A stretch of DNA of 64,000 nucleotides, taken from assembly GCA_017467085.1 (NCBI GenBank), contig JAFTSW010000072.1, forward strand, positions 26,753 to 90,752. Reading direction: 5' to 3'. The notes beneath the pieces were generated by a model, which worked only from the letters and a program-made list of their open reading frames with translations, had not been told where the DNA came from and did no database searches. Shown piece by piece: positions 31,916 to 60,800 of the stretch. Source of the DNA: Clostridia bacterium. Lineage in GTDB: Bacteria > Bacillota > Clostridia > Oscillospirales > CAG-272. Numbering within the stretch: position 1 is the first letter of the stretch; each line of letters opens with the position of its first letter. The position numbers and the translations under genes were made by a program.

Positions 31916-33172
31916 ATGAAACCGCTTTTTACCGCCGCTGATATTTTGCTCCCCGATTTTACCGCCGTGGATGCGGAAAAATACGCCTGCATCGCCTGCG
32001 ACCAGTTCACCTCCGAGCCCCGTTATTGGGAAGAGGTGAAAACGCTCGTGGGGGACGCCCCCTCCTTGTTCCATATCATTCTTCCCGAATGCTATCTGGA
32101 AAGCGAGGACGAGGCGGCGCTCACTTCCCGTATCGCCCGTATTCACGCCAATATGAAGCAGTATGAAAAGGGTGTATTCTCCACCCATAAGGACAGTATG
32201 ATTTATCTGGAAAGAAGGGACACGGCAGGGAAGGTTCGCCGAGGACTTGTGGGCAAGATTGACTTAGAGGGCTATTGCTACGAGAAGGGCTCGACAAGCC
32301 CCGTCCGCGCCACCGAGGGAACGGTGCTTTCCCGTATTCCTCCCCGTCTTCGCGTGCGCCGTGGCGCTCCCTTGGAGGCGCCCCACGTGATGCTGCTTAT
32401 CGATGACCCCGAAAACACCCTCTTTTCCCGGGTGGAAAAGGGAGAAAAGACCCTCGCCTACGATTTCACCCTGATGCAGGGCGGCGGCGCTGTCAAGGGC
32501 TATTTTCTCTCTCCCGCTCTGATAGAGTGGGTGGAGGGCTTCCTCTTGGCAATGGAAAAGAAGGCGCCCCTGCCCTACGCCGTAGGGGACGGCAACCATT
32601 CCTTGGCAACCGCCAAGGCGTATTACGAGGAAATTAAGGCGACCCTCGGCGAGGAAAAGGCAAGGCTTCACCCTGCCAGATACGCCTTGGTGGAGCTTGT
32701 CAATATTCACGATTCCTCCCTGGAATTTGAGCCGATTTATCGCCTGCTTTTGGGCGTGGAGAAGGATACGCTTCTTGCCGAGCTTGATGCGTTTTGTAAA
32801 GAAAATACCGAGAAAGGCAACCAACAGTTTACACTCCTTTCCGCCCAAAACGGAGAGGTGTCCGAGGCGTCCTATACCCTTTCTGCCGTTGCCCATTCTC
32901 TGACCGTCGGCACCCTGCAGATTTTCTTGGATAAGCTCCTGCAGAGGCACCCCGAGGCGTCCTTGGACTATATCCACGGGGAGGATTCGCTTCGCGCCCT
33001 CTGCCTGGAGAAGAACGGGCTTGGCTTCCTTTTTGAGGGTATGGAAAAGAAGGAGCTTTTCCCCTCGGTTGCCAAGGACGGCTCCCTGCCTCGCAAGACC
33101 TTCTCCATGGGTACCTCCAGGGACAAGCGGTATTATCTGGAATGCCGCCGCATTGAGGATAGCGCATGCTGA
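31916..33172 (+). CDS. DUF1015-family protein (unknown function)
   Basis: Pattern resembles DUF1015 (..ACDQFTSE.., ..VRATEGTVLSRIPPRLRVRRGAPLEAPHVMLLIDDP.., ..AVGDGNHSLATAKAYY..). Overlaps dus by 7 nt (ATGCTGA). Confidence 0.6.
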   Translation: MKPLFTAADILLPDFTAVDAEKYACIACDQFTSEPRYWEEVKTLVGDAPSLFHIILPECYLESEDEAALTSRIARIHANMKQYEKGVFSTHKDSMIYLERRDTAGKVRRGLVGKIDLEGYCYEKGSTSPVRATEGTVLSRIPPRLRVRRGAPLEAPHVMLLIDDPENTLFSRVEKGEKTLAYDFTLMQGGGAVKGYFLSPALIEWVEGFLLAMEKKAPLPYAVGDGNHSLATAKAYYEEIKATLGEEKARLHPARYALVELVNIHDSSLEFEPIYRLLLGVEKDTLLAELDAFCKENTEKGNQQFTLLSAQNGEVSEASYTLSAVAHSLTVGTLQIFLDKLLQRHPEASLDYIHGEDSLRALCLEKNGLGFLFEGMEKKELFPSVAKDGSLPRKTFSMGTSRDKRYYLECRRIEDSAC

Positions 33173-34170
33173 GCTTCGGGGGTATCTCCCTGCGGCACGG
33201 CTTGCTTTTAGCCCCCCTGGCAGGGTATACGGACGTTGCCTTTCGCGCCATCTGCCGCCTTCACGGCGCGGAGTACCAGGTCACCGAGATGGTGTCCTCC
33301 CGCGCCCTTTGCTATCACGATAAAAAAACGCCCCGTCTTGCCCGTGTAGGGGAGGAGGAGCTACCCTGTGCCGTGCAAATCTTTGGAAGCGAGCCCGCCT
33401 ATATGGCGGAGGCCGCCGCTATGGTGGAGAAGGGAATGGCAGGCGGGGCTGCTCCCTCGGCAATCGACATCAATATGGGCTGTCCCGTGAAAAAGATTGT
33501 GTCGGCAGGAGACGGAAGCGCCCTTTTGAAGAATCCGAGCCTGGCGTACGATATCGTCAAGGCGGTAAAGGGCGCCGTTTCCTTGCCCGTTACCGTCAAA
33601 ATACGGGTGGGCTATACCGAAAAGGAAAAAGGGAAGGGCATTCCCGAATTTGCCAAAGCCTTAGAGGAGGCAGGCGCCTCCCTTATCACCGTTCATGGGC
33701 GCACCCGTGAGGCGATGTACAGCGGACAGGTTGACCTTGCCTCTATCGCCGCCGTCAAGGCGGCGGTGTCTGTGCCCGTGGTGGGCAACGGGGATATTGC
33801 CTCGGCAGAGGACGCCCTTCGTATGCTGCGGGAAACGGGCTGTGACGGGCTGATGATAGGCAGAGGCGCTGTCGGCAACCCCTTTGTTTTTGAAGAAATT
33901 GCCGCCGCCTTGGAGGGGAGGGACTATACGCCCCCCACGGTAGAGGAGCGGTTATCTTTGGCGCTTTTGCACCTTTCGCTTTTGGAAAAGGAAGCGGAGC
34001 GGGCGTTGGCAACGGGGGAAAGCGCCCCGCCCTTTGCCGCCGAGGCGCGCAAGCAGATTGCCGCCTACACCAAGGGTATGCGAGAGGGCGCCGCCCTGCG
34101 CGCCGCCCTCTGCCGCGCCGCCTCCCTGGCGGAAATGACCGCCATCGTGACCCGCGCTTTGGAAAAGTAA
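33166..34170 (+). CDS. dusB: tRNA-dihydrouridine synthase; its last codons are supplied by the inserted cassette
   Basis: LAPLAGYTDVAFR, IDINMGCPVKKIV (catalytic Cys region) and VHGRTR. Confidence 0.9.
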   Translation: MLSFGGISLRHGLLLAPLAGYTDVAFRAICRLHGAEYQVTEMVSSRALCYHDKKTPRLARVGEEELPCAVQIFGSEPAYMAEAAAMVEKGMAGGAAPSAIDINMGCPVKKIVSAGDGSALLKNPSLAYDIVKAVKGAVSLPVTVKIRVGYTEKEKGKGIPEFAKALEEAGASLITVHGRTREAMYSGQVDLASIAAVKAAVSVPVVGNGDIASAEDALRMLRETGCDGLMIGRGAVGNPFVFEEIAAALEGRDYTPPTVEERLSLALLHLSLLEKEAERALATGESAPPFAAEARKQIAAYTKGMREGAALRAALCRAASLAEMTAIVTRALEK

Positions 34171-34285
34171 ACGCGCTCCTTGAAGCTCAATCCCTATATA
34201 CAAAATACACAAAACCTACAAGAAGGGGCTGTCTGCCAAGACCGCCCCATTCTCTTTGGAAAAACGATTGACTTTGGGGGGAATG

Positions 34286-34363
34286 GCTCATAAAATGTGG
34301 AAAAAGCAAAAATATTCGCTCATAAAATGTGCAAAAGCAAAAAATATTCGCTCATAAAATGTG
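34286..34363 (+). repeat. Three iterons GCTCATAAAATGTG at 32-bp spacing
   Basis: Copies start at 34286, 34318 and 34350. They lie immediately upstream of the -35 box of the cassette promoter. Confidence 0.9.
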
Positions 34364-34370
34364 TTTTGTG

Positions 34371-34399
34371 TTGACAAATCATTAAAAAAAGCGTATAAT
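34371..34399 (+). promoter_or_regulatory. Consensus sigma70 promoter of the cassette gene
   Basis: TTGACA (34371-34376), 17-nt spacer, TATAAT (34394-34399). Confidence 0.7.
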
Positions 34400-34428
34400 A
34401 AGAGCAACATTGTATGACGGAGGCCGTT

Positions 34429-35787
34429 ATGTATTTAAGACGAAAAATTGACGCATATCTTGCAGAGTGGAAAAACAACGCCCAGCGAAAGCCTCTCGTT
34501 GTAAAAGGGTGCAGGCAGGTTGGCAAGACAGAGTCTATTCTTCATTTTGCAAGAGAAAATTATGAAAGCGTTGTGGAAATCAATTTCGTAAGAGATGAGA
34601 AATACAAAAAAATTATCGTTGACGGGTACGACGTTGACAGTATTATAAAAAACATTTCCAGAATTGACCCGACCAAGCGATTTGTACCGCAAAAGACCTT
34701 GCTGTTTTTTGACGAAATAACTGAGTTTCCGGAAATTGCGACTGCGCTCAAGTTTTTCAGAATTGACGGGCGCTATGACGTCATATGCTCGGGCTCTATG
34801 CTGGGCGTGAACTACAAAAGGATAGAAAGCAACAGTGTTGGAAACAAAACGGACTACACGATGTTTTCGATGGATTTTGAAGAATTCCTGTGGGCCAAGG
34901 GCTATGGCGAGGACACGGTTGCGGATATGCTGGCGCATATGCGTGAAATGCGACCGTTTAATGAATTGGAAATGGATATTTATCACACGCTTTTTCTTGA
35001 TTACGTTATTCTTGGCGGTATGCCCGCGGTGGTGAAGGGCTACGTTGAAAAAGGAACGTTTGAAGGCTCCCTGGAGGCGCAAAGGCAGTTGATTGCCGAC
35101 TATAAGGAGGACATCCGCAAATACGCCGAGGGGCTGGACCAGGCACGCGTTATAAACGTGTTCAACAGTATCGCACCGCAGCTTGCGAAGGAAAATAAAA
35201 AATTTCAAATTGCAAAAGTGGCTCCCGGAGCCCGTTTCAGAGATTACAGAGGGTGCGCGGAATGGTTGGCGGATGCGGGTATCGTGAATGCTTGCTATTG
35301 TCTTGGCTATCCTGAGCTCCCCCTGGGCGGCAACTGCGACACCGACAAATTCAAGCTTTATTTTGCTGATACGGGTCTGCTTGTAGCCCTGCTTGACGAG
35401 GAGGCGGGCGAGGACCTTCGCGCAAATAGAAACCTGGGCGTCTATAAGGGCGCGTTATACGAAAATATAGTGGCAGAAGCATTGGCTAAGTCGGGATACA
35501 GCCTGTATTACTATACGCGTGAGGATTCCACACTTGAGGAGGATTTCTTTATCAGAAGCGCGGAAACGCTCATTCCCGTTGAAGTTAAGGCAACGGGTGG
35601 CAAAGCAAAATCTCTTCGCACGTTGATTGATTCGAACAAATATGCCGACGTCCAATACGGCTTCAAGCTTTCTCACGGCAACGTTGGCTATAGCGACGGG
35701 ATTTTTACGTTTCCCTATTTTTGCGCGTTTTTGCTAAAGCGCTTCGTGAAGAGCTTTTCTTTTGAGAAACGAAAGGAAAATGCGTAA
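34429..35787 (+). CDS. AAA+ ATPase (AAA_14-type) with C-terminal DUF4143 / PD-(D/E)xK-like domain
   Basis: Walker A VKGCRQVGKTES, Walker B LLFFDEITEF, C-terminal EEDFFI..LIPVEVK. Start at ATG 34429 (GGAGG SD; MYLRRKIDAYLAEW); the track ORF starts at 34414. Confidence 0.85.
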   Translation: MYLRRKIDAYLAEWKNNAQRKPLVVKGCRQVGKTESILHFARENYESVVEINFVRDEKYKKIIVDGYDVDSIIKNISRIDPTKRFVPQKTLLFFDEITEFPEIATALKFFRIDGRYDVICSGSMLGVNYKRIESNSVGNKTDYTMFSMDFEEFLWAKGYGEDTVADMLAHMREMRPFNELEMDIYHTLFLDYVILGGMPAVVKGYVEKGTFEGSLEAQRQLIADYKEDIRKYAEGLDQARVINVFNSIAPQLAKENKKFQIAKVAPGARFRDYRGCAEWLADAGIVNACYCLGYPELPLGGNCDTDKFKLYFADTGLLVALLDEEAGEDLRANRNLGVYKGALYENIVAEALAKSGYSLYYYTREDSTLEEDFFIRSAETLIPVEVKATGGKAKSLRTLIDSNKYADVQYGFKLSHGNVGYSDGIFTFPYFCAFLLKRFVKSFSFEKRKENA

Positions 35788-35929
35788 AGGCGCCGCCTCC
35801 CTGGCGGAAATGACCGCCATTATCCGTCAGGCGTCGGAAAGCTGAATTGCCCCGCCAAGCCTTCTCTCGCCTTCACAAAAAGCAAATTGCCCCGCAATTT
35901 CGCTTTTTCTCATTTTTGTGTTTTCTAAA

Positions 35930-35959
35930 GGAACCGTTTGCAAAAACGGTTCCTTTTTT
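35930..35959 (+). terminator. Rho-independent terminator (likely the original dus terminator)
   Basis: GGAACCGTTT-gcaa-AAACGGTTCC followed by TTTTTT. Confidence 0.8.
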
Positions 35960-36029
35960 GTTTGTTCGTCAGTTTGACGAAAAATGTCAAAAAAATGCTA
36001 AAAACATATATAATATATAGGAAAAAGAC

Positions 36030-36221: not shown

Positions 36222-39200
36222 ATGAAAAAGCGTTTACTCAGTCTTCTGCTGGTAGCCTGCATGCTGCTTTCTATGGTGCCCGTGTTCAGCACCGTGGCGG
36301 TAGCGGCAGAAAACTCTGCGGAAGAAGAAACTCCTTATGACTACAGTAAGCTGTACGTGCAAAACGGCTTGAAGCTGCTTTACACGGCTTACGCAGGTCA
36401 TAGCACCGTCGACCTCGCCAACAATAAGTGGGTCGACGCCTCCGGAAACGGAAACGATGCTACCTTCGTGAATGCGGCAGCGTCCTCCACGGGCCCCGCA
36501 ATCAATTGGGAAGCTAACCGTAACGGAAAGAACGGCGTTGGCTACGATATGCTGGGCGGTACCTGGGACGGTGTGACCAACTCTACCCCGGATAAAAGTG
36601 CCAACTACAACCTTGGCTCCAGTGTGTATCTTAACCTTCCCGTAGCCGTTATGAAGGCTATGAATGATGGCAACTACACCTTGGAATATACGGTTGAATA
36701 CCCCAGCATCCATTGGTACAACAGCGAGGGTGTTCTGCAGACCGAGGCGCCCTACGCAACGGGTGCTTTGGCTACCACGCTTTCCGATATTCTCGGTACG
36801 ATGCGTGCCATTTATCAGCGCGGCGATACAACGCAGACATTGACTTACGTCCGTTGCGCGCGTTGGTTCCAGGCAGGCGGCACGACGGGATGGGGAAGCG
36901 CTCCCAGTACTTATCTGGTAAGCTCGATGCATAGCGAGCAGGGCCGTGCCAATGACGGGATTTACACCCAGACCGTTTCGCGTATCTGGAATACCGAAAT
37001 CATCACCTTCCCCACCTACATTCTGACCAAAGAGGACGGGACGGAGATTACGGAGTACGCTCTCAACTATCTGCAGGGCTACAATGCCGACGCGACGCTG
37101 GACACTACGGGTGCTACTAAGTATTACGTTGTGAACAACGGCGGCAAGTATGAGATTTATGCCGAAGGCGGCTCCACCGCTATTTATAACAATCTCTATA
37201 CGGACGTTGACTTCTTCGCGCCTCTTGCTTCTATTGTCAGCACCGCGGAAAGCCCCGTGTACTTCACGGTTTCTGCGGGCGAGCAGACCACCAGAAGCGT
37301 GGTGTACGCCGTTGGAAACAGTGGCGGCAAGAAGGAAAACTCGCAAGTCTATTACGAGAACAACCTCTATGCAAGACCGACCAACGTAAACAATAGTTCT
37401 ATCTATGCCAAGTGCCAAAGACCTTACTACATCAAGGACGCCTCGGCAACCGTCTTCCAGATGTTTATCAAGACGCCTGTGACGGCATACTCCATCCGTT
37501 TGTATGACAGAGCGCTTGAGGACTACGAGGCTAAGCAGAACCACTTTGCTGACGTTTGCGCCTTCTACAAGCTGGACGTGGCTGCGTTCCTTACCTATTC
37601 CGAGGACGTGCAGAGAATGGCACACGAGGCGTTCCTGCAATATGATATGAACGAAGCCGATTACGATGCAACGAAGGCTTCCCTGCAAATCTATCTGGAT
37701 TTGGTAGGCGCAAGCAGCCTCTACGATTATTCGGAGCTCTATCATAAGGAAGGCTTGGTTGCTCTCTATACCTCCTTTATGGCGGACAATAACGTAGATT
37801 TCACCACGGGCGCATGGACCAACGGTGTCTCCGACGGTGCCGCCGCGCGCATCTCCAACCCCTCCAAGTGGGTTAGAAACGCCTTTGGCGCAACGGGCTT
37901 CCATCTGGAGGCCGTGACGGGCGGTCTGGGCGCTAACACCATCTTTATGGAGCTGCCCTACGAATATATCACGGGTGATAATTACACCATTGATACCTTC
38001 GTCAATCTGCGCCGGCACGTTAAGGCTGACGGCACGTTCCTGGGCAACACCTCTACCTATAACGTGACGTTCAATACCTACTCCTACGTATTCCGTCTGG
38101 ACTCCTTCAACCTGATGGGTCCTGTTGCGGTAGACGCGCAGTGGCGTGTGATGTACTCCAATTACACCATTGACGGCGGCTTGAACGGCGGTATGACGGA
38201 CCCCTTGGGTAACAGCCTGAATATTTATTCCGGCACCTCCCCTGCGGAAGTCCGCACCTATTACTTCGCTCCCACGTCGGCGGGCAGCAAGTACGCGAGC
38301 GACGCAAAGTTCGAGCTCGTTCATAACTCCCTGACGGGCCCGCAGTTCGTGGGCGGCTTTGCTATCACCAAGACAACGGCAGACGGCAAGTCCACCTTTG
38401 CTATGTACAACCAGGCAGCCTCGAAAACGTTTGCTACCTATAACGTTGCCGATATGGAAAAGGCAAAGGGCGCGACCGTGACCTATACCGATGCAGAGGG
38501 TAACGAGCAAACGGTAAACAAGGCTACGGGCATCACCCTGTCCAACTCCTATATCTTCGCAGATAATCCCGCATTTATTTACGCGGTGCGTATCTATAAC
38601 GACCAGCTGAGCGAAAACGAGAAGACGCAGAACTATTTTGCGGACGTTGCCGCCTTCTACGGCTTGGATATGAGCAAGTTTGCCAAGCTGAGCGAGAACG
38701 CGCAGAAGAACGTTATAAAGACGGTTGGCGCGGAGTTTATGGCGCTGACCCTGCAGAACGATGACCTGACGGCTTACACCGAAGAGAGAAAAGCGGCGCA
38801 GGCAATTCTGGATAAGGCTTTGACTGCCTTTGTTTTGAATGAATACGACCTTCTCTACGTTGGCGCTGACGGAAGCAAAACCGTTAACGGCGGTAAGCTG
38901 ACGATGTTCCTTTCCGCTATGGCGGGCAATAATAATGCTGACCTGGCAAGCGGCAATTGGTACGATAGAGTGGGCGGCTACAACGCTACCTTCAAGAACG
39001 CAACGAACGTTACCTGGGTTTCCAGAGGCGAAAGCGGCGTTGGCTACGACCTCTACGGCGGTACCTGGAACGGCTCCGCCTGGGATACCACGGGCACCAA
39101 CCTGCAGAACGGCGCGCAGCTGACTCTCGACGTTAACGCGATGAAGGACCTGAACGATAGCGCCTACACCTTCGAGAGCATCGTTGCCTTCCCCAGCGTG

Positions 39201-42200
39201 CAGTGGACGGACGAAAACGGACAACTGCAAACCACCAATTATACCAATAGCGTTTACGGCTGGGTTGTTTCGGACTCCGATGCTATCGGTAACCTGTACA
39301 CCATTTACCAGCGCTCTGACTCCACGGGCACTCTCGGCGTTGTTCGCCGCACCCGCTGGTACCTCGGTAACGGTAAGGGTAACTGGAATAATTCCGGTGG
39401 TATAGGCGACAACCGTTACGGCTGCTTCTGTGACAGCGCTGCCCGTAACAATGGCGGTGCGATTTACAACCAGAACATTGAGCGCCGCTGGCTGAGCGAC
39501 CTCACCTTTGATACCTACGTATTTAAGGATGCCGAGGGCAACGAGCTTGCCTCCGCAGGTAAGACCCAGCTTGACCAGCGCCACGTTTCGGGCGCCGCAG
39601 TCCTGGACACCACGGGCGCAACCAAGTATATGGCGCTGAAGGTCTCCGGCAGCTACGAGATTTACGCAGTGGCTGAGGACTCGACAAAGACGCTGCTGTA
39701 TAACAACCTGTTTGATACGGTATACACCTGGCTGGCTCCTCTGTTGACCACGGACGAAGCAAACCCCCTGTACTTCACCGTTTCCGCAGGCACGGACGTA
39801 ACCAAGCAGGCAACCTATTACATCAACGGCGCCGGCTACGGCAGAAACTTCTACACCAATGAGAGGTATGCCTATACCTCGTCTGCGCAAAGCACGGCGT
39901 TCGCCACCTATTCCAATATGCCTGTTTATCCCAGCGACAGCGTCGCGAAAGAGTTCTTTATGTTCAAGAACGCGCCCTGCTCCGTTTACAGCATTCGTCT
40001 GTATGATGCTGTTCTGGTAGCAATCGAGAAGGCACAGAACCACTTTGCGGACGTTGCTTCCTACTTTGCGCTGGAGTTAGACGGCTTCCATACCCTGAGT
40101 GCGGAGGAAAAGAGCCGCGTATATACCGCGTTTGCCGCAATCGAGCTTGACAAGGCAACGGCTGCTGAGGCACAGACGCTTCTCGACGCCTTCACCCTTA
40201 ACGCCTACGATATGCTTTACGTTGGTATGGACGGAAACGAAACCGCTAACGGCGGTAAGCTGACCATGTTCCTGTCCGCTCTGGCAGGGAACAGCTCCGC
40301 TGACCTTATTAACGGCAAGTGGTACGACAAGACGGGTAACTATGACGCTACCTTCACCAGCACCGCAAACGTTGCCTGGGTTTCCCGCGGCGAGAACGGC
40401 GTTGGCTACGATATGCTGGGCGGTACCATCAAGGAAGACGGCTCCTTCGATACCTCTGCCAACTACACCATTCTGGAGAATGCAAGACTGACCCTGGACG
40501 TTGCAGCCCTCAAGGCGTTGAACGACGGCGCTTACACCTTGGATTACATCGCCGACTTCCGCAGCGTACAGTGGTATGACTTGGACGGTGTTCTGCAAAC
40601 CACCAATCACGCCAACGCGAATATGGCGGGCTACACCACCTATTCCGAGTGGATTGGTACCTTGAAGAACATTTACCAGCGCTCCGACATTAAGAGCGAC
40701 CTGCATCCCCGTCAGGTTCGTTGGTTCTTAGCACCCGGCGACACTCTGTGGGGCAGCGGTCAGTACTACTTCAACGCCCAGCTGCACGGCGAGACCAGCC
40801 GTCAAGGCGGCGGTATCCAGGCGCACGAGATTATCCGTGTGAAGGAAACCGTAACCATGGAGACCTGGATTTTCACCTATGAGGACGGCTCCACCGTTGA
40901 AATCGGCCAGAATAAGCTGAAGGTCTTCGGCGGTGCGTACACCTTCTTGACCGACGGCACCAAGTACGTTGTAACCGCAGGCACCAAGAAGATTAACGAC
41001 ACGCTGAATCACGATGTGTACAACATCGCTCTCGAGGACGGCACGGTTGTTTCTACCAACCTCTACTCCGGCTATACAGATCTCTTCGGCACCTTGAAGG
41101 AGGGAACCGTTACCGTAACGGAGGGTGAAACGGAAACTGACAAGTACACGCTCACCATGACCAAGGACGGTAGCCAGTACAAGGAAGGTATTTATTACAC
41201 CAACGAAAAGGTTATGACCACCACCCAGCTCTCCAGAGCCGATTATGCACATAACGGCTTGGACGGCTACGTGTCTGACTCTACCTCCACCAACTTCATT
41301 ATGTTCAACAGAACGCCTTGCGCTGTTTACAGCGTTCGTCTGTATGACGCAGACCTGACGGCAAGCGAGAAGGCACAGAACCATTTTGCAGACCTCTGCG
41401 CTTACTACCTGGTAGACATTGCAGGCTTTGCGGATGCTTCCGCTGATGCCAAGGCTGCAGCCTATGCGGCAGTAGCAGGACTTTCCATGCTGGCTGAGGA
41501 TGACGCAGATTACGTTGCCACCAAGGCAAAGGTACAGGCAGCTGTTGACAATGCAACCACCGTTGCCTTCGAGGCAGGTGCAACCCTTCCCGCTGTGGTT
41601 GAGGGTGTTGCTGACAGAGTGGTAGCTGTTTGGGTAACGGCTGACGGCGAGACCAAGTATCTCCCCGGCACCGTGCTGGCTGATGCCGCTACTCTGACCC
41701 CTGTGCTTGTTGCTAAGGGCGAGACGGTTGATGGCGCAAGCGTAAGCGTGGCAAACGGCGGTTTGCGCTTCAAGACCACCTTCTCCGCCTCCGATTACTA
41801 CACCTTGGGTAAGGTAATGGGCAACGAGAACGCTGTGCTTTCGATGATTATCGCTCCCGAGCTTCTCATCGAGAACGTCGCAAACGGCGTCTTCACCAAG
41901 GAGGCGCTGGGCGCAGACAACTACGTTGAGGTAGCTATTAACGGTTACTTCGATTTGGAAGGCGACACCTACACCTTCGCGGCAGGTCTTTCCGAGCTTT
42001 CCGCCGTCACCAAGGCAAATGACCTTTCCTTCGCGGCAGTTCTTTGCTTGACGGTGAAGGTAGGCGAGGAAACCTACGAGATTTACGGCGACTACAACGC
42101 CGACTGCAACAGAAGCGGTCTTGACGTTCTGACGCCCTATATCGAGGACGTTATCGCAGGCGAAGAGACTGTGGCAGACGACCTGAAGGATGACCTTTAT

Positions 42201-42275
42201 AACCTCTACACCGGCTTCGCAGCCCACGATACCGCCCTTGCCGCTTCCTTGAAGACGGCTCTGGGCATTCAATAA
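36222..42275 (+). CDS. Giant secreted protein (2017 aa) with four LamG/ConA-like modules and a unique C-terminal domain
   Basis: Signal peptide MKKRLLSLLLVACMLLSMVPVFSTVAVAAE. Module starts at about aa 38, 500, 874 and 1328. Module-start motifs: D-A-SGNGNDATF (module 1), GGYNATF (module 3) and GNYDATF (module 4); module 2 is a shorter variant without this motif. Module-end motifs: YSIRLYDRALEDYEAKQNHFAD, YAVRIYNDQLSENEKTQNYFAD, YSIRLYDAVLVAIEKAQNHFAD and YSVRLYDADLTASEKAQNHFAD. No LPXTG, SLH or choline-binding anchor seen. Confidence 0.85.
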   Translation: MKKRLLSLLLVACMLLSMVPVFSTVAVAAENSAEEETPYDYSKLYVQNGLKLLYTAYAGHSTVDLANNKWVDASGNGNDATFVNAAASSTGPAINWEANRNGKNGVGYDMLGGTWDGVTNSTPDKSANYNLGSSVYLNLPVAVMKAMNDGNYTLEYTVEYPSIHWYNSEGVLQTEAPYATGALATTLSDILGTMRAIYQRGDTTQTLTYVRCARWFQAGGTTGWGSAPSTYLVSSMHSEQGRANDGIYTQTVSRIWNTEIITFPTYILTKEDGTEITEYALNYLQGYNADATLDTTGATKYYVVNNGGKYEIYAEGGSTAIYNNLYTDVDFFAPLASIVSTAESPVYFTVSAGEQTTRSVVYAVGNSGGKKENSQVYYENNLYARPTNVNNSSIYAKCQRPYYIKDASATVFQMFIKTPVTAYSIRLYDRALEDYEAKQNHFADVCAFYKLDVAAFLTYSEDVQRMAHEAFLQYDMNEADYDATKASLQIYLDLVGASSLYDYSELYHKEGLVALYTSFMADNNVDFTTGAWTNGVSDGAAARISNPSKWVRNAFGATGFHLEAVTGGLGANTIFMELPYEYITGDNYTIDTFVNLRRHVKADGTFLGNTSTYNVTFNTYSYVFRLDSFNLMGPVAVDAQWRVMYSNYTIDGGLNGGMTDPLGNSLNIYSGTSPAEVRTYYFAPTSAGSKYASDAKFELVHNSLTGPQFVGGFAITKTTADGKSTFAMYNQAASKTFATYNVADMEKAKGATVTYTDAEGNEQTVNKATGITLSNSYIFADNPAFIYAVRIYNDQLSENEKTQNYFADVAAFYGLDMSKFAKLSENAQKNVIKTVGAEFMALTLQNDDLTAYTEERKAAQAILDKALTAFVLNEYDLLYVGADGSKTVNGGKLTMFLSAMAGNNNADLASGNWYDRVGGYNATFKNATNVTWVSRGESGVGYDLYGGTWNGSAWDTTGTNLQNGAQLTLDVNAMKDLNDSAYTFESIVAFPSVQWTDENGQLQTTNYTNSVYGWVVSDSDAIGNLYTIYQRSDSTGTLGVVRRTRWYLGNGKGNWNNSGGIGDNRYGCFCDSAARNNGGAIYNQNIERRWLSDLTFDTYVFKDAEGNELASAGKTQLDQRHVSGAAVLDTTGATKYMALKVSGSYEIYAVAEDSTKTLLYNNLFDTVYTWLAPLLTTDEANPLYFTVSAGTDVTKQATYYINGAGYGRNFYTNERYAYTSSAQSTAFATYSNMPVYPSDSVAKEFFMFKNAPCSVYSIRLYDAVLVAIEKAQNHFADVASYFALELDGFHTLSAEEKSRVYTAFAAIELDKATAAEAQTLLDAFTLNAYDMLYVGMDGNETANGGKLTMFLSALAGNSSADLINGKWYDKTGNYDATFTSTANVAWVSRGENGVGYDMLGGTIKEDGSFDTSANYTILENARLTLDVAALKALNDGAYTLDYIADFRSVQWYDLDGVLQTTNHANANMAGYTTYSEWIGTLKNIYQRSDIKSDLHPRQVRWFLAPGDTLWGSGQYYFNAQLHGETSRQGGGIQAHEIIRVKETVTMETWIFTYEDGSTVEIGQNKLKVFGGAYTFLTDGTKYVVTAGTKKINDTLNHDVYNIALEDGTVVSTNLYSGYTDLFGTLKEGTVTVTEGETETDKYTLTMTKDGSQYKEGIYYTNEKVMTTTQLSRADYAHNGLDGYVSDSTSTNFIMFNRTPCAVYSVRLYDADLTASEKAQNHFADLCAYYLVDIAGFADASADAKAAAYAAVAGLSMLAEDDADYVATKAKVQAAVDNATTVAFEAGATLPAVVEGVADRVVAVWVTADGETKYLPGTVLADAATLTPVLVAKGETVDGASVSVANGGLRFKTTFSASDYYTLGKVMGNENAVLSMIIAPELLIENVANGVFTKEALGADNYVEVAINGYFDLEGDTYTFAAGLSELSAVTKANDLSFAAVLCLTVKVGEETYEIYGDYNADCNRSGLDVLTPYIEDVIAGEETVADDLKDDLYNLYTGFAAHDTALAASLKTALGIQ

Positions 42276-58304: not shown

Positions 58305-58818
58305 ATTTCTCCACCAAAAGATGCAGGCGAAGCAAGCGGATAGGCTTGTTTTTTTTCTTGGCGTAGCAAAGGGTAGACCAGGTGCCACCCTCTAATTTCC
58401 CGTTCCAAATACCGAAAACCAAATCCGCCTTGTCCACCATATACTCGTTTCGCTGATGCATACAGCCAGGGGTATAATAGGGAGAAAGCACCCGACTTTC
58501 ATCGCAGGCGGCAAGGATTTTCTGATAACGGGCAACGTCCTCGCTCTTCCATTTCTTGCATTGGTCGGGGCAGGGAATGGCGGCCTCTAAGGTAACGGTA
58601 AAGAGCCCCTCGTATTGCCGCTTCAGCGCCAGCACCGCCTCGGCAAAATCCAAATCCGCTCCCAGCGCCATACCCGTGATAAAATGGGTATAGCCCGTTC
58701 TTATCAGCTCGTCCACCGTATCCATCAAGGCGGCGCGGTAGCGGGAGAGGGGAAGAGAGGGTCGGGAATAGGGGAAGGGAAAGCCCTTTGGTCTATGCCC
58801 CGTCACACAGCAGACCAT
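58303..58818 (-). CDS. SLOG-fold DUF1273 (YpsA/YoqJ-like) protein
   Basis: MVCCVTGHRPKGFPF.. (the TGHRP motif) and ..HFITGMALGADLDFAEA... Its ATG overlaps the upstream gene's stop (TGATG). Confidence 0.7.
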   Translation of the reverse strand: MVCCVTGHRPKGFPFPYSRPSLPLSRYRAALMDTVDELIRTGYTHFITGMALGADLDFAEAVLALKRQYEGLFTVTLEAAIPCPDQCKKWKSEDVARYQKILAACDESRVLSPYYTPGCMHQRNEYMVDKADLVFGIWNGKLEGGTWSTLCYAKKKNKPIRLLRLHLLVEK

Positions 58819-59771
58819 CAGCCCTTTTGACGGCGCACGTCCACGCCCTTGAATACGTAGGGAATAAAGCTACCCAGAAGGCGGCTGGTGATACGCGCCT
58901 CGTAGCGCTCGGCAAGATTTTTCTGCCCGAGGTTGGTGCTGATGATGGTGCTTTGCCCGTTGTTCAGACGGGTGTTAAGCAGGCGATAGATAGCGGAAAG
59001 GGCAAAGGGGGAGTCCGCCTCGGTGCCCAGGTCGTCGATAATCAGAAGGTCGGTGCGGAAATAGCGCTCGGTGTGGTCCTCCTCATCGTCAAAGCGCTTG
59101 TAGCGCTCCTTCTCAAAGTCGGCAATCACGTTGGGGGCGATATCGTATACCACGTCAAAGCCCCGTTCAATGACACGGCGGGCAATGGCGGTGGAAAGAT
59201 GGGTCTTGCCAAGACCCGTGCCGCCAACGAACAGCAGGTTGGCGTGAGACTCCTCAAAATCCTCGGCAAAGGCAAGGGCGTCACGGAGCGCCTTTTCGGC
59301 ATAGGGACGGTTGTCGGCGTAATAGTCCAAGGAAAAGCTCTCAAAGCTCTGGGTGGAGGCAAGGGTGCCAAGACCCGACGCCCGTAGGGACGCCTCTGCC
59401 AACAGCCGCCGCATACAGCCGCACATACCCTTCTCGGTATAGCCCGTGTCCTTGCAAAGGGGACAGGTGTACTCTACGGCGGTGTAGTCCTTGGCATAGC
59501 CCAAGGCGGTTAAAAGGGAGGCGCGCTTTTCCTGCAGGGCAAGGTTTTCCTTCCGCAGACGGGCAATCTCCTCCTTGGCGTTTTCGCTTCTTCCAAAGGC
59601 AACGGCGCATAGCTTGGCGGAGGTGCCTGCCAAGGCGGCGTCAATCTCGGCAATCTCGGGAGAGCGGGCATAGACGCTTTTATGGCGCTCGTCCGACAGA
59701 CGCACCGCCCGGCTTCTTCTTTCCTCTAATTGCTTGGCAACGGTCATATAGACCTCTCTACTGTATCCCAT
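58818..59771 (-). CDS. DnaC/DnaI-like helicase loader ATPase (IstB-like AAA+)
   Basis: Walker A LLFVGGTGLGKTHL, Walker B LLIIDDLG, and an N-terminal Cys cluster CPLCKDTGYTEKGMCGC. Confidence 0.8.
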   Translation of the reverse strand: MGYSREVYMTVAKQLEERRSRAVRLSDERHKSVYARSPEIAEIDAALAGTSAKLCAVAFGRSENAKEEIARLRKENLALQEKRASLLTALGYAKDYTAVEYTCPLCKDTGYTEKGMCGCMRRLLAEASLRASGLGTLASTQSFESFSLDYYADNRPYAEKALRDALAFAEDFEESHANLLFVGGTGLGKTHLSTAIARRVIERGFDVVYDIAPNVIADFEKERYKRFDDEEDHTERYFRTDLLIIDDLGTEADSPFALSAIYRLLNTRLNNGQSTIISTNLGQKNLAERYEARITSRLLGSFIPYVFKGVDVRRQKG

Positions 59772-59780
59772 GGGATATCC

Positions 59781-60800
59781 TCACTTTTTCGTGTCTTGTT
59801 TTTCTTTGTCGCCAACGGGGGTATAGCTTCGTTCCAAGGCGTGGGCAAAGAAATCGTCCACGTCAAAGCTCTGCATAGCAAGGCTTTCCTCCTTGGCGGC
59901 GGCAGAGGGGGTCTTGCCCTTGCCCTTGGCGCCCCGCGCCTGCCGCTTTTCCTCCACCAGACGCTCCGCATCCGCAATAGTCTTACAGCCTGCGGCGTTC
60001 CAGTCGGAAATAATCTTGTCGGCGTAGGCAACGGCAGCCTTGCCCGTGGCGTTAACGGTGATATCGTAGGCGTAGCCGATAATATCGTCCCCGTAGTTGT
60101 ATTCGCTGCACCAGCGTAAGAAGCAGTCCTCCTCCTTGGCGGTCAGCTTGCGCTCGCCGATGCCGAACATAGCGCGCAGGGACGCCTCGCGGCTGCGCAT
60201 CTTGTTCTTTCTTTCAATATAGGCGGTCAAATCCCTGACGGTGACAATGTCTTTATCAAAGAGAGAATGTGCCACCTTTTGGGTATAGCGCAGGGGCTTT
60301 CTGCCGTTTGCCTCGCAATAGGCGAGAAGAATGAGTATGTACTCGCATTCCAGCGCCAGCTCCTCGTGCATCCAAAGCAGGATGCTGATATCCGTTTCAT
60401 TCAGCTCCTTGCCGTGAATTTGCTCACAGGCGGAAAAGAAGGAGGCAAGCGCCTCTTCCTTCGTAACGTCCGCTATATGCCCGATGGAATAGGAGGGGAC
60501 GCGCTCATCCTGCAAAACGGGCTTTTTCTTTTGGGAGGCGGGCTCGTCCTTAGGCGCATCGGCGCTCCTCTTGGCGGCGCCTGCGATTTTCACCAGCCCT
60601 GCGCCTCGCCAGAAGGAAATCGCCTCCGTTGCCTCCTCAGGAGAGAGGGCGGCGGCTGTCGCCAAGGCGGAGAGGGGAAGCCCGTCCTCCGCCTCGGTTA
60701 AAACCAGAAGCAGACGCAGCTCCTCGGCGCTTGCCTCGACAAACGCCTTTGCCTCGCTGGGGCGAACCCCCTTTTTCAGTTGATAGCTTTTTTCACTCAT
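59781..60800 (-). CDS. DnaD-domain replication initiation/helicase-loading protein (DnaB_2/DnaD-like)
   Basis: Two DnaD-like segments: ..ILLWMHEELALECEYILILLAYCEANGRKPLRYTQKVAHSL.. and ..DDIIGYAYDITVNATGKAAVAYADKIISDWNAAG... Confidence 0.7.
   Translation of the reverse strand: MSEKSYQLKKGVRPSEAKAFVEASAEELRLLLVLTEAEDGLPLSALATAAALSPEEATEAISFWRGAGLVKIAGAAKRSADAPKDEPASQKKKPVLQDERVPSYSIGHIADVTKEEALASFFSACEQIHGKELNETDISILLWMHEELALECEYILILLAYCEANGRKPLRYTQKVAHSLFDKDIVTVRDLTAYIERKNKMRSREASLRAMFGIGERKLTAKEEDCFLRWCSEYNYGDDIIGYAYDITVNATGKAAVAYADKIISDWNAAGCKTIADAERLVEEKRQARGAKGKGKTPSAAAKEESLAMQSFDVDDFFAHALERSYTPVGDKEKQDTKK

What the first reader, a model, noticed from the sequence alone, without database searches (positions are those of the whole stretch)
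34115..35820. Single-gene AAA-ATPase/PD-(D/E)xK cassette inserted into the 3' end of dus, flanked by exact 31-bp direct repeats, with no recombinase
Seen in sequence:
- GCGCCGCCTCCCTGGCGGAAATGACCGCCAT occurs at 34115-34145 (inside dus) and again at 35790-35820.
- Between the repeats lie 1.64 kb of visibly AT-richer DNA. It contains only four things: a replacement dus C-terminus (..AIVTRALEK*); three iterons GCTCATAAAATGTG at 32-bp spacing; a consensus TTGACA-17-TATAAT promoter; and one gene whose TAA stop is 2 nt from the right repeat.
- After the right repeat the dus frame continues ..AIIRQASES*, followed by a strong terminator. This looks like the displaced original 3' end.
- The gene has Walker A GCRQVGKT, Walker B LLFFDE and a C-terminal EEDFFI..IPVEVK.

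Established knowledge: this is the AAA_14 + DUF4143 architecture, and the EVK-type motif fits PD-(D/E)xK nucleases. Integration into the 3' end of a gene, with an att duplication that restores the ORF, is typical of recombinase-mobilised islands.

Inference: a minimal ATPase-nuclease module that is mobilised in trans. It is a candidate stand-alone defence gene or selfish element. The iterons may be arm-type recombinase sites or regulator sites.
Basis: partly seen in the sequence, partly recalled or inferred. Interest (0 to 1): 0.65.

Follow-up and report, generated by a model that had tools for sequence, protein, structure and literature searches.

The report
Strain-variable ATPase-nuclease gene cassette in dus
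A single horizontally acquired gene for an ATPase-nuclease (PDC-S01, a very common but unproven "phage-defence candidate") sits with its own conserved operator repeats in the end of a tRNA-modification gene, flanked by a duplication of host sequence; relatives are inserted the same way at other sites with no recombinase, so the gene may move by an unknown route.

Summary
**Observation: confirmed.** The exact 31-mer occurs only at 34115-34145 and 35790-35820. It brackets a low-GC insert (0.45 against 0.59 in the upstream flank) that holds one gene.

- **Insertion.** Seven contigs from the same species carry the predicted empty site, with Dus ending ..AIIRQASES. Sister strains show the duplication was originally 46 bp.
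- **Gene.** AAA_14 + DUF4143, matching PADLOC candidate PDC-S01 (E=7e-156). A confident model (pLDDT 95) shows an Orc1/Cdc6-like AAA+ domain, a lid, a winged helix and a PD-(D/E)xK-type C-terminal domain. The gene is under purifying selection.
- **Iterons.** They are not att arm sites. 55 of 79 relatives have the same 32-33-bp phased repeats at their promoter, so they are operators that belong to the gene.
- **Mobility.** No recombinase lies in the insert or in the 64-kb window. In six other species the cassette is again bracketed by direct repeats (32-71 bp), each made of local sequence and each ending just past the ATPase stop (0.28 loci expected by chance). A second filled/empty pair confirms that host target is duplicated. 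The repeats share no sequence, vary in length, and the inserts have no terminal repeats. This argues against one integrase or a classical transposase.
- **Open.** The insertion mechanism and the defence role are unproven; the one published phage test of a PDC-S01 was negative.

partly supported.

The parts
33166..34170 (+). dusB (tRNA dihydrouridine synthase), hybrid allele. The native gene runs to 34145; the last 8 codons plus stop (34146-34170, ..IVTRALEK*) are read from the inserted DNA.
   Evidence: Pfam Dus E=1e-82. The empty-site allele P0001 ends ..AIIRQASES. Filled/empty alignment.
34100..34145 (+). Left copy of the duplicated host target. It is 46 bp in the ancestral insertion; the 31-mer 34115-34145 is the part still duplicated in this window. 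It contains the hairpin TGGCGG-AAATGA-CCGCCA, which ends 1 nt before the insertion point.
   Evidence: Fold z=-2.9.
34146..34285 (+). Left, non-conserved part of the insert (140 bp). It holds the 8-codon replacement tail for dus and a GC-rich hairpin (34225-34248) followed by ATTCTCTTT. Its origin is unknown, and it is not shared with other cassettes.
   Evidence: No homology to 80 related loci. No significant similarity to the native dus 3' region. Absent from JGI metagenomes.
34286..34363 (+). Iteron/operator array: three copies of (ATATTC)GCTCATAAAATGTG at 32-bp spacing. This is the left edge of the conserved cassette.
   Evidence: Homology with relatives starts at 34281-34292. 32-33-bp periodic repeats occur in 55 of 79 scored related loci.
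34371..34399 (+). Sigma-70-type promoter TTGACA-17-TATAAT. In relatives its spacer often holds a further iteron copy.
   Evidence: 12/12 match. Spacer iterons in L012, L013, L029, L036.
34429..35787 (+). PDC-S01 gene (452 aa): AAA+ ATPase (Walker A G27-T34, Walker B D95-E96), helical lid, winged helix (~270-312) and a C-terminal PD-(D/E)xK-type domain (E345, D372, E385-V-K387). The last ~8 codons are not conserved in relatives.
   Evidence: Pfam AAA_14 2e-23 and DUF4143 1e-34. PADLOC PDLC04786 7e-156. AF2 pLDDT 95.1. Foldseek hits 2qen and Orc1/Cdc6. pN/pS 0.10-0.18.
35790..35820 (+). Right copy of the duplicated target. It is 31 bp here and 46 bp in strains L095-L098; the window lineage lost 15 bp between GCGCCGCC repeats.
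35821..35845 (+). Displaced native dus 3' end (..IRQASES*). In empty-site strains it is contiguous with the target sequence.
35856..35895 (+). Extra 40-bp segment flanked by AATTGCCCCGC repeats (35845 and 35885). It is present in 3 of 3 filled contigs and absent from 7 of 7 empty ones. Source unknown.
35927..35962 (+). Native dus intrinsic terminator (13-bp stem plus T-run). It now also serves the ATPase gene, which has no terminator of its own.

Best explanation
**What it is (shown).** A horizontally acquired, self-contained, single-gene cassette: a phased operator (iteron) array, a consensus promoter, and a PDC-S01 gene (AAA+ ATPase, winged helix, PD-(D/E)xK-type nuclease domain). It was inserted 8 codons before the end of dusB in one lineage of a gut or rumen Clostridia species. 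The insertion duplicated 46 bp of host sequence, of which 31 bp survive in this window. dus stays open because it reads 8 codons into the insert. The ATPase gene uses the displaced dus terminator. The insertion is old, vertically inherited and under purifying selection.

**How it arrived (inferred).** Not through a dedicated att site and integrase. The more likely route is a sequence-independent event that duplicates the host target, such as repair of a widely staggered break or a replication template switch next to a hairpin-forming sequence. The same kind of event has happened repeatedly to this cassette at unrelated, mostly terminator-proximal sites. Which enzyme makes the breaks is unknown. 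Spread within a species afterwards needs only ordinary homologous recombination.

**How the gene works (inferred by analogy).** The protein binds its own iterons through the winged helix as a phased oligomer and represses its promoter. On some DNA or nucleotide signal, ATP-dependent assembly activates the nuclease. This would serve defence, or the element's own maintenance or spread.
For: **Insertion and empty site**
- Filled and empty alleles align cleanly.
- A related species (79% nucleotide identity) has no insert.
- The duplication is 46 bp in strains L095-L098.

**Foreign origin**
- GC is 0.453 in the insert against 0.586 in the left flank.
- The ATPase is 68-88% identical across Clostridia, Bacilli and Mollicutes bins, while host Dus falls from 98% to 82% to 68%.
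- COG1373 is among the most often co-shared HGT genes in gut bacteria (PMC10782964).

**Age and function**
- Cassette divergence among filled strains reaches 1.85%, similar to the flanks.
- pN/pS is 0.10-0.18.

**Cassette limits**
- Homology to relatives starts at the first iteron and ends near the stop codon.
- Iterons are conserved in 55 of 79 scored loci and extend into promoter spacers.

**Insertion not att-based**
- The right repeat begins 6-50 bp after the ATPase stop in 6 other loci (5 distinct sites), against 0.28 loci expected and a maximum of 3 in 2,000 randomisations.
- Repeat lengths are 32-71 bp, and each repeat is local intergenic or coding sequence.
- In a second filled/empty pair (L027 and L101 filled, L102 empty) the empty allele has one copy of the 68-bp sequence, and differences between copies are scattered single bases.
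- The three best-defined inserts share no terminal sequences.
- No recombinase was seen in the units whose ORFs were read, in 40 window ORFs scanned here, or in 5 flanking genes with precomputed annotation.

**Protein**
- The model has pLDDT 95.1.
- The best structural matches are 2qen and DNA-bound Orc1/Cdc6.
- E345, E385 and K387 are invariant or nearly so across the family at 31-42% identity, and D372 is invariant among close relatives.
Against: - No direct evidence exists for any insertion mechanism. No circular or junction reads were found, and no donor sequence for the 140-bp left segment.
- Long target duplications of 32-71 bp are not a documented outcome of a known bacterial pathway, so the proposed mechanism is an inference from anatomy.
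- Most related loci (about 70 of 80) show no flanking repeats. The pattern applies to a minority, or to the more recent events.
- Some bracketed loci look more like recombination through shared flanks or tandem accretion. L065 frames unrelated paralogues with the same 186-bp and 65-bp sequences. L076/L078 have three repeat copies next to a truncated tyrosine integrase.
- The replacement tail has the same length as the native one and matches it at 12 of 25 bases. This is what an att-borne gene end would look like.
- Iteron binding by the ATPase itself is untested.
- The only published phage test of a PDC-S01 was negative.
Confidence: 0.5

Rival explanations
1. The cassette is a non-autonomous integrative element, comparable to the integrase-less, att-flanked CIMEs of streptococcal ICEs or to pseudo-SCC elements (comparison from my own knowledge). 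The repeats are attL and attR, the insert carries a replacement 3' end for dus, and a tyrosine or serine recombinase encoded elsewhere moves it in trans.
For: - The insertion is in the 3' end of a housekeeping gene, the reading frame is preserved, and the replacement tail has exactly the native length.
- The presence/absence polymorphism is precise.
- In L076/L078 the repeat covers the last codons plus terminator of the upstream gene. It occurs three times in an array next to a truncated tyrosine-integrase ORF, HipBA and ParA.
Against: - The repeats at 5 other sites share no sequence with this one or with each other. They are simply local host DNA of 32-71 bp.
- Each cassette would need a different host-matching attP.
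- There are no conserved element ends or arm-type sites; homology starts at the iterons, which are promoter operators.
- No recombinase was found among the 45 annotated genes of the 64-kb window.
- No larger element was seen at this dus site in the contigs recovered.
- The left segment is not detectably dus-derived beyond 12 of 25 bases.
Confidence: 0.2
2. The cassette is an autonomous, selfish, single-gene mobile element. Its own oligomeric ATPase-nuclease binds the iterons, cuts target DNA at or around hairpin-forming sequences with a wide, variable stagger, and the cassette is joined in. Fill-in then yields the long target duplications.
For: - The cassette is the only thing common to all bracketed insertions. 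The right boundary always lies within 2-50 bp of the ATPase stop.
- It encodes a DNA-binding AAA+ protein with a nuclease domain, and carries conserved phased binding sites.
- Four of six duplicated targets fold into hairpins more stable than nearly all shuffles, and the window's insertion point is 1 nt after one.
- One PDC-S01 gave no phage protection.
Against: - No PD-(D/E)xK protein is known to carry out complete transposition alone (my own knowledge).
- There are no terminal repeats or a conserved right-end site. A variable 35-140 bp of unrelated DNA lies left of the iterons.
- Only one copy is present in the 64-kb window, and most related loci have no flanking repeats.
- The insertion here is old and stable.
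- Hairpins are expected in terminator-rich intergenic DNA anyway.
Confidence: 0.15
3. Campbell-type integration. A circular copy of the cassette that already carried a short piece of the target region (for example after repeat-by-repeat excision in another strain, or carried on a plasmid or ICE) integrated by RecA-dependent single crossover. This duplicated the shared segment.
For: - Repeat length is arbitrary (32-135 bp), as expected if it equals the length of the carried homology.
- L065 shows two unrelated paralogues framed by the same 186-bp and 65-bp sequences, which indicates exchange through shared flanks.
- A close homologue sits on the R. albus 7 megaplasmid.
- Contigs of 1,672-1,704 bp match the insert size.
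Against: - It does not explain how the cassette first reached each new site.
- 31-68 bp is at or below the homology usually needed for efficient RecA crossover (my own knowledge).
- The short contigs begin and end at the repeat or within the insert, as expected from assembly-graph breaks. None contains a circle junction.
- Differences between the repeat copies show no donor/host hybrid pattern.
Confidence: 0.1
4. The filled state is ancestral, and the empty alleles arose by deletion between the direct repeats, so nothing was ever inserted.
For: A 46-bp direct repeat can support precise deletion. The empty alleles form one tight sub-lineage.
Against: - A related species has dus directly followed by the large downstream gene.
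- Insert GC is 13 points below the flank.
- The cassette is far more conserved across taxa than the host's Dus.
- The repeat itself needs an insertion event to explain it.
Confidence: 0.03

Closest known systems
PADLOC phage-defence candidate PDC-S01 (AAA_14 + DUF4143, COG1373)
   Same: Full-length match to the PDC-S01 model (E=7e-156). Same two Pfam domains. Same description in the literature: an ATPase fused to a PD-(D/E)xK-superfamily domain, very abundant and often transferred horizontally (PMC12988326, PMC13356809, PMC10782964).
   Different: Nothing differs in the protein. New here are the conserved iteron operator array, the clean filled/empty polymorphism, and the recurrent repeat-bracketed insertions without a recombinase. 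None of the papers found in these searches describes them. Defence activity is unproven, and the one published test was negative.
Integrase-less, att-flanked integrative elements (CIMEs of streptococcal ICEs; pseudo-SCC elements). Comparison from my own knowledge.
   Same: Insertion in the 3' end of a housekeeping gene, direct repeats at both ends, the reading frame kept open, no recombinase inside, strain-variable.
   Different: Those elements share one att core per family and derive from larger elements. Here the repeats differ at every site and are plain host sequence. No remnants of a larger element are present, and the only conserved non-coding feature is a promoter operator array.
Orc1/Cdc6-type and STAND-type NTPases (NBD, helical domain, winged helix), including nuclease-armed Avs defence proteins and the archaeal Walker ATPase PAB2304 (PDB 2qen)
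   Same: Best structural matches are 2qen (E=2e-8) and DNA-bound Orc1/Cdc6 (2qby, 2v1u). Same order of AAA+ core, lid and winged helix. Direct repeats next to the protein's own gene recall Orc1/Cdc6 and origin-recognition boxes. Avs proteins likewise pair such a core with a nuclease effector.
   Different: Only 452 aa. No sensor repeat domain. The nuclease is C-terminal. No sequence-level relationship to any solved structure. There is no evidence that the iterons act as an origin.
Transposons that make target-site duplications
   Same: The host target is duplicated on both sides of the insert, and the empty allele has one copy.
   Different: The duplications are very long and variable (32-71 bp) rather than short and fixed. 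There are no terminal inverted repeats and no transposase.
Integron gene cassettes and attC-only clusters
   Same: Single-gene units; in L076/L078 an array of modules is separated by copies of one hairpin-containing repeat near a tyrosine-recombinase fragment.
   Different: The cassette has its own promoter. The repeats are host terminators rather than attC sites. No IntI is present, and the window's repeat is dus coding sequence.

Membership tests
PDC-S01 / AAA_14-DUF4143 (COG1373) family | N-terminal AAA_14 P-loop domain with Walker A and Walker B | tested here: met
   PF13173 E=2.3e-23, residues 20-154. G27, G32, K33 are invariant and T34, D95, E96 nearly invariant in an 83-sequence alignment reaching 31% identity.
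PDC-S01 / AAA_14-DUF4143 (COG1373) family | C-terminal DUF4143 domain | tested here: met
   PF13635 E=1.3e-34, residues 227-388, full profile length.
PDC-S01 / AAA_14-DUF4143 (COG1373) family | Full-length match to a PADLOC PDC-S01 model | tested here: met
   PDLC04786 E=7.4e-156, residues 1-439 of 452.
PDC-S01 / AAA_14-DUF4143 (COG1373) family | Confers protection against phage | not testable with these tools
In the literature, one representative tested against T4, T5 and T7 in E. coli B was not among the four protective candidates (bioRxiv 10.1101/2024.09.26.614923). Validation is described as pending (PMC12988326).
PD-(D/E)xK nuclease superfamily | Core alpha-beta-beta-beta-alpha-beta fold | tested here: inconclusive
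PD-(D/E)xK nuclease superfamily | Catalytic motif: E on helix 1, D on strand 2, (D/E)xK on strand 3 | tested here: met
   E345 is invariant, and E385 and K387 are at least 90% conserved across the family. D372 is invariant among close relatives. All four sit on the expected elements of the model.
PD-(D/E)xK nuclease superfamily | Nuclease activity | not testable with these tools
   Requires biochemistry.
Recombinase-mobilised integrative island (att-flanked, including non-autonomous forms) | Direct repeats at both ends, and an empty site with one copy in relatives | tested here: met
   31/46-bp repeats and 7 empty-site contigs.
Recombinase-mobilised integrative island (att-flanked, including non-autonomous forms) | Integrase or recombinase in the element or nearby | tested here: not met
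   The insert holds a single ORF. Pfam scans of 40 window ORFs, plus precomputed annotation for 5 flanking genes, found none. The rest of the genome could not be searched.
Recombinase-mobilised integrative island (att-flanked, including non-autonomous forms) | Related elements share an att core and conserved ends or arm sites | tested here: not met
   The repeats at 5 other sites are unrelated local sequences of 32-71 bp, and the insert ends share no consensus. The iterons are promoter operators conserved with the gene.
Recombinase-mobilised integrative island (att-flanked, including non-autonomous forms) | Excised circular form with an attP junction | not tested
   No read data were available. 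Contigs of insert size end at the repeat or inside the insert and contain no junction.
Classical transposon or insertion sequence | Terminal inverted repeats, a transposase, and a short target duplication of fixed length | tested here: not met
   No inverted repeats at the ends. No transposase. Duplications of 32-71 bp, variable in length.
Iteron-controlled replicon (initiator plus origin) | Phased direct repeats next to the gene of a DNA-binding initiator-like protein | tested here: met
   Iterons with 32-33-bp phasing. The protein resembles Orc1/Cdc6 with a winged helix. This is a resemblance only.
Iteron-controlled replicon (initiator plus origin) | Existence as an extrachromosomal replicating molecule | tested here: not met
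   All close copies recovered are chromosomal or on a megaplasmid within ordinary gene context. None was found in viral contigs. The short contigs are linear fragments of the chromosomal locus.

The most novel reading that the evidence does not exclude
PDC-S01, one of the most abundant "defence candidates" in prokaryotes, is in this subfamily an autonomous, single-gene selfish element of a new kind. An Orc1/Cdc6-like ATPase-nuclease recognises its own phased iterons. It inserts its gene next to hairpin-forming (terminator) sequences without a conventional recombinase, leaving long, variable duplications of the target. Its abundance would then reflect mobility rather than, or as well as, immunity.
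Probability: 0.12. Interest if true: 0.85.

Novelty: new variant of a known kind. Interest (0 to 1): 0.5.

Why it matters
PDC-S01 is reported as the fourth most common "defence system" across prokaryotes and the most frequent single locus in rumen genomes. Yet it has no demonstrated function, and the one phage test found was negative.

This locus gives a clean natural experiment: filled and empty alleles of the same species. It also shows two features that the papers found in these searches do not mention:
- a conserved, phased operator array that travels with the gene;
- recurrent single-gene insertions bracketed by long duplications of host sequence, with no recombinase.

If the cassette promotes its own insertion, a large share of predicted "defence" loci would need re-labelling as mobile elements, and a new insertion mechanism would be open to study. 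If it does not, the locus still gives a defined promoter and operator and a natural pair of strain lineages with and without the gene for testing what PDC-S01 does.

Tried and rejected
- **Foreign dus 3' end.** I tested whether the 140-bp left segment is a dus end plus terminator from another lineage. Global and local alignment against the native dus 3' region scored no better than shuffles. The hairpin pattern was absent from JGI metagenomes. A Dus-tail protein query returned nothing, probably because it was too short for the word index. The idea is left open but weak.
- **Repeat extending back to dus 34078** (ATGCGAGAGG against ATGCGTAAAG). Not supported by alignment; the robust extent is 46 bp.
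- **Synonymous differences in the L076/L078 repeats as evidence of a donor gene tail.** Rejected: the left copy is inside a functional gene, so silent changes are expected there anyway.
- **Contigs of 1,672-1,704 bp as circular forms.** They are linear pieces that start and stop at the repeat or inside the insert, as expected from assembly-graph breaks.
- **Phage carriage.** No relative in IMG/VR, and only distant homologues (42% or less) in GenBank phage records.
- **A templated source for the 40-bp extra segment.** None in the window or in any fetched locus.
- **Homing-endonuclease logic.** Rejected: the intact target is regenerated at the right repeat, so insertion would not protect the site from cleavage.
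- **NCBIfam** has no model for this protein.
It was then found through a DNA pattern instead.

Full report

Yes. The 31-mer occurs exactly twice in the 64-kb window, at 34115-34145 and 35790-35820, with none expected by chance. GC falls from about 0.6 in dus to 0.37-0.52 between the copies. The insert is 0.453 against 0.586 for the 3 kb upstream.

The other features are as described:
- Three exact GCTCATAAAATGTG copies 32 bp apart.
- A 12/12 consensus promoter at 34371-34399.
- A single ORF, 34429-35787, behind a GGAGG ribosome-binding site, with its stop 2 nt from the right repeat.
- A dus ORF ending ..AIVTRALEK* at 34170.
- An in-frame ..AIIRQASES* after the right repeat, followed by a 13-bp-stem terminator at 35927-35956.

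**2. It is an insertion, and the empty site exists.**

The closest Dus homologue in public data (P0001, 98% identical) ends ..AIIRQASES. It is encoded on seven metagenome contigs, and three of these (L002, L003, L007) extend into the large downstream gene with nothing in between.

Filled and empty alleles align at 97.4-98.8% on both sides. They differ by a clean 1,675-bp segment, and the empty allele has one copy of the 31-mer. A related species (79% nucleotide identity, Dus 82%) also lacks the insert. SNPs are evenly spread in both flanks, so no foreign recombination tract came with the insert.

Other strains with the same insertion show that the duplication was originally longer. L097 and L098 have a 46-bp right copy (dus 34100-34145). 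L095 and L096 have the same 46 bp with three mismatches. The window's copy has lost 15 bp between two GCGCCGCC repeats.

A further 40-bp segment (35856-35895), flanked by 11-bp AATTGCCCCGC repeats, is present in all three filled contigs that cover it and in none of the seven empty ones. Its source could not be found.

**3. The insertion is old and the gene is maintained.**

The empty alleles form one tight lineage (0-0.64% apart), 1.3-2.0% from the window. The cassette differs by up to 1.85% among filled strains, about the same as the flanks. Within-species pN/pS is 0.10-0.18. This is a stably inherited, functional gene, not a recent hop or a decaying remnant.

**4. What the gene is.**

- **Domains.** Pfam gives AAA_14 (2e-23) plus DUF4143 (1e-34). 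PADLOC gives a full-length match to the candidate single-gene system PDC-S01 (7e-156). NCBIfam has no model, and no solved structure is similar in sequence.
- **Family size.** 9,315 clusters at 50% identity. All relatives at 68-88% identity fall in one cluster, and the next are about 42% identical.
- **Structure.** With an 83-sequence alignment, AlphaFold2 gives pLDDT 95.1 and pTM 0.93. Foldseek's best matches are the P. abyssi Walker ATPase PAB2304 (2qen, E=2e-8) and then DNA-bound Orc1/Cdc6 and ORC subunits.
- **Layout.** AAA+ core (about 1-160), helical lid, winged helix (about 270-312), then a C-terminal domain in the order helix-strand-strand-strand-helix-strand. E345, D372 and E385-V-K387 sit on the expected elements. 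E345 is invariant, and E385 and K387 are at least 90% conserved, down to 31% identity.
- **Literature on the system.** PDC-S01 is described as the fourth most common defence across prokaryotes and the most frequent single locus in rumen genomes, with validation pending (PMC12988326, PMC13356809). One representative tested in E. coli B against T4, T5 and T7 was not among the protective candidates (bioRxiv 10.1101/2024.09.26.614923).

**5. The iterons belong to the gene, not to an att site.**

Nucleotide homology between this insert and 80 related loci begins at 34281-34292, exactly at the first iteron, and ends at about 35750-35773.

In 55 of 79 scored loci, the 230 bp upstream of the ATPase contains repeats with a 32- or 33-bp period. 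The consensus is (A)ATTCGCTCwwAAAATGTG, in two to four copies, followed by TTGACA-17-TATAAT. Often one more copy lies in the promoter spacer.

Three-helical-turn phasing and overlap with the promoter indicate an operator array bound cooperatively on one face of the DNA. The array travels across bacterial classes with a single gene whose product has an Orc1/Cdc6-like winged helix. Self-binding and autorepression is therefore the simplest reading. This is inference and was not tested.

**6. Horizontal spread.**

A scan of one genome per species found 482 stretches encoding a relative. The best 80 are 68-86% identical and come from Clostridia, Bacilli and Mollicutes, with a few Bacteroidota-labelled bins. 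Over the same range, the host's Dus is only 53-68% identical to its homologues.

Cassette GC follows host GC with a slope of only 0.51, and is more than 5 points lower than the host in 33 of 76 loci. COG1373 is among the most often co-shared HGT genes in gut bacteria (PMC10782964). A 69.6% homologue lies on the R. albus 7 megaplasmid. No close relative was found in viral collections.

**7. How does it get in?**

*No recombinase.* There is none in the insert. None was found among 40 ORFs scanned across the window or the 5 flanking genes with precomputed annotation, which are all housekeeping: GH3 enzymes, NAD synthesis, Mur ligase, the his operon, TsaD, and a DnaI/DnaB-like loader pair.

*The pattern recurs.* In six of the 80 loci, representing five distinct sites, the ATPase is again bracketed by direct repeats whose right copy begins 6-50 bp after the stop codon:

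| Locus | Repeat length |
|---|---|
| L017 | 32 bp |
| L027 | 68 bp |
| L032 | 47 bp |
| L065 | 65 bp |
| L076 | 70 bp |
| L078 | 71 bp |

L076 and L078 share one site. Randomising all 28 repeat pairs found in these loci gives 0.28 such loci on average, with a maximum of 3 in 2,000 trials. L024 (106 bp) and L092 (135 bp) have repeats that bracket the ATPase plus one downstream gene.

The left copy lies either about 175 bp upstream of the start (cassette alone) or 1.8-4.1 kb upstream, with extra genes inside. None of those genes looked like a recombinase on reading; they were not scanned against Pfam.

*The repeats are local host sequence.* They are terminator hairpins in L017, L024, L027 and L076/78, and a promoter-like hairpin in L065. 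They share nothing with one another.

*A second filled/empty pair.* L027 and L101 are filled. L102 is empty, with a single copy of the 68-bp sequence. The insert there is 1,536 bp and intergenic, ending 22 bp past a terminator T-run. The few differences between copies are scattered single bases, as expected from an exact duplication followed by drift, not from a donor/host hybrid.

*The inserts have no defined ends.* The three best-defined inserts share no terminal sequences. They carry 35, 60 or 140 bp of unrelated DNA to the left of the iterons. None has a terminator of its own; each uses the duplicated host terminator.

*Hairpins.* Four of six duplicated targets fold into hairpins more stable than nearly all shuffles. 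In the window, the insertion point is 1 nt after TGGCGG-AAATGA-CCGCCA, which lies inside dus.

**8. Weighing the mechanisms.**

- **One integrase acting in trans (0.20).** It fits the 3'-end location and the preserved reading frame. It fits poorly with unrelated, host-identical repeats at every site and with the absence of conserved ends.
- **A classical transposase.** Excluded: no terminal repeats, no transposase, and long variable duplications.
- **Homing-endonuclease logic.** Fails, because the right repeat regenerates an intact target.
- **Campbell-type crossover of a circle carrying host homology (0.10).** It explains the arbitrary repeat lengths and the slot-like L065 locus, where the same 186-bp and 65-bp sequences frame paralogues only 19% identical. 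It does not explain first arrival at a site.
- **Sequence-independent, target-duplicating insertion (0.50, favoured).** This means repair of a widely staggered break or a replication template switch near a hairpin, followed by ordinary homologous recombination within the species. The linked 40-bp insertion with its own 11-bp duplication would fit a complex template-switch event, but that is speculation.
- **The cassette's own nuclease makes the breaks (0.15).** This remains open.

On the favoured reading, the "replacement C-terminus" is most simply read-through into inserted DNA. The Dus C-terminus is poorly conserved among homologues. Against that, the tail has the same length as the native one and matches it at 12 of 25 bases, so a borrowed gene end cannot be excluded.

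**9. Verdict.**

It is partly wrong or unsupported: the iterons are operators, and there is no evidence for an att/integrase system.

The gene belongs to a known but uncharacterised family. The conserved operator array and the recurrent, repeat-bracketed insertions without a recombinase were not mentioned in the papers I found. They make the question "defence gene or selfish element?" directly testable.

Noticed in passing
window 35845-35895: A 40-bp extra segment (35856-35895), flanked by 11-bp AATTGCCCCGC repeats, lies immediately after the native dus stop. It is present in 3 of 3 filled contigs and absent from 7 of 7 empty ones. No source sequence was found in the window or in any fetched locus.
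   Followed up: yes
L065 1506-6431: Three different AAA_14/DUF4143 paralogues lie in tandem (398, 402 and 456 aa; 19-39% identical). The first and third are framed by the same 186-bp upstream sequence (98% identical) and the same 65-bp downstream sequence (91%). This looks like a slot in which different paralogues are exchanged or stacked.
   Followed up: partly
L076 4031-8430 and L078 (same site): The cassette lies in a mobile-element-like region: a truncated tyrosine-integrase N-terminus, an AbrB/SpoVT-like fragment, then the ATPase. Next come an HTH + HipA toxin-antitoxin module bracketed by a third copy of the same terminator-containing repeat, then ParA. These annotations come from reading the ORF translations, not from Pfam scans.
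   Followed up: partly
L017 3428-7584 and L016 6458-10613: A separate 156-bp direct-repeat pair (96-97% identical) brackets a 3.85-kb segment immediately downstream of the ATPase unit. This suggests a local hotspot for repeat-bracketed insertions. Its contents were not examined.
   Followed up: no
L092-L094: In an 84%-identical relative, the ATPase is followed 17 bp later by a DUF6933 gene. In L092 the pair is bracketed by 135-bp direct repeats (86% identical), a possible two-gene variant of the cassette.
   Followed up: partly
window 34268-34296: A second promoter-like site (TTGACT-17-TAAAAT, 10/12) has its -10 element inside the first iteron, so each iteron carries a TAAAAT that could act as a weak -10.
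   Followed up: no
GenBank AY583235.1 (Mycoplasma phage phiMFV1), hit H26: A homologue of the ATPase's N-terminal part (50% identity over residues 3-164) is annotated there as an ORF disrupted by phiMFV1 prophage integration. In that case a family member is the target of a mobile element.
   Followed up: no
window 36222-42275: The gene downstream of the insertion encodes a 2,017-aa protein with a signal-peptide-like N-terminus and large internal repeats. It was not scanned here, and precomputed records list no Pfam hit for its homologue in L003. It is conserved next to dus in the related species L009.
   Followed up: no
window 58818-60800: An ORF that hits IstB_IS21/Bac_DnaA lies next to a DnaB_2-domain ORF. 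This is the housekeeping DnaI/DnaB-type helicase-loader pair, not an IS21 element.
   Followed up: yes
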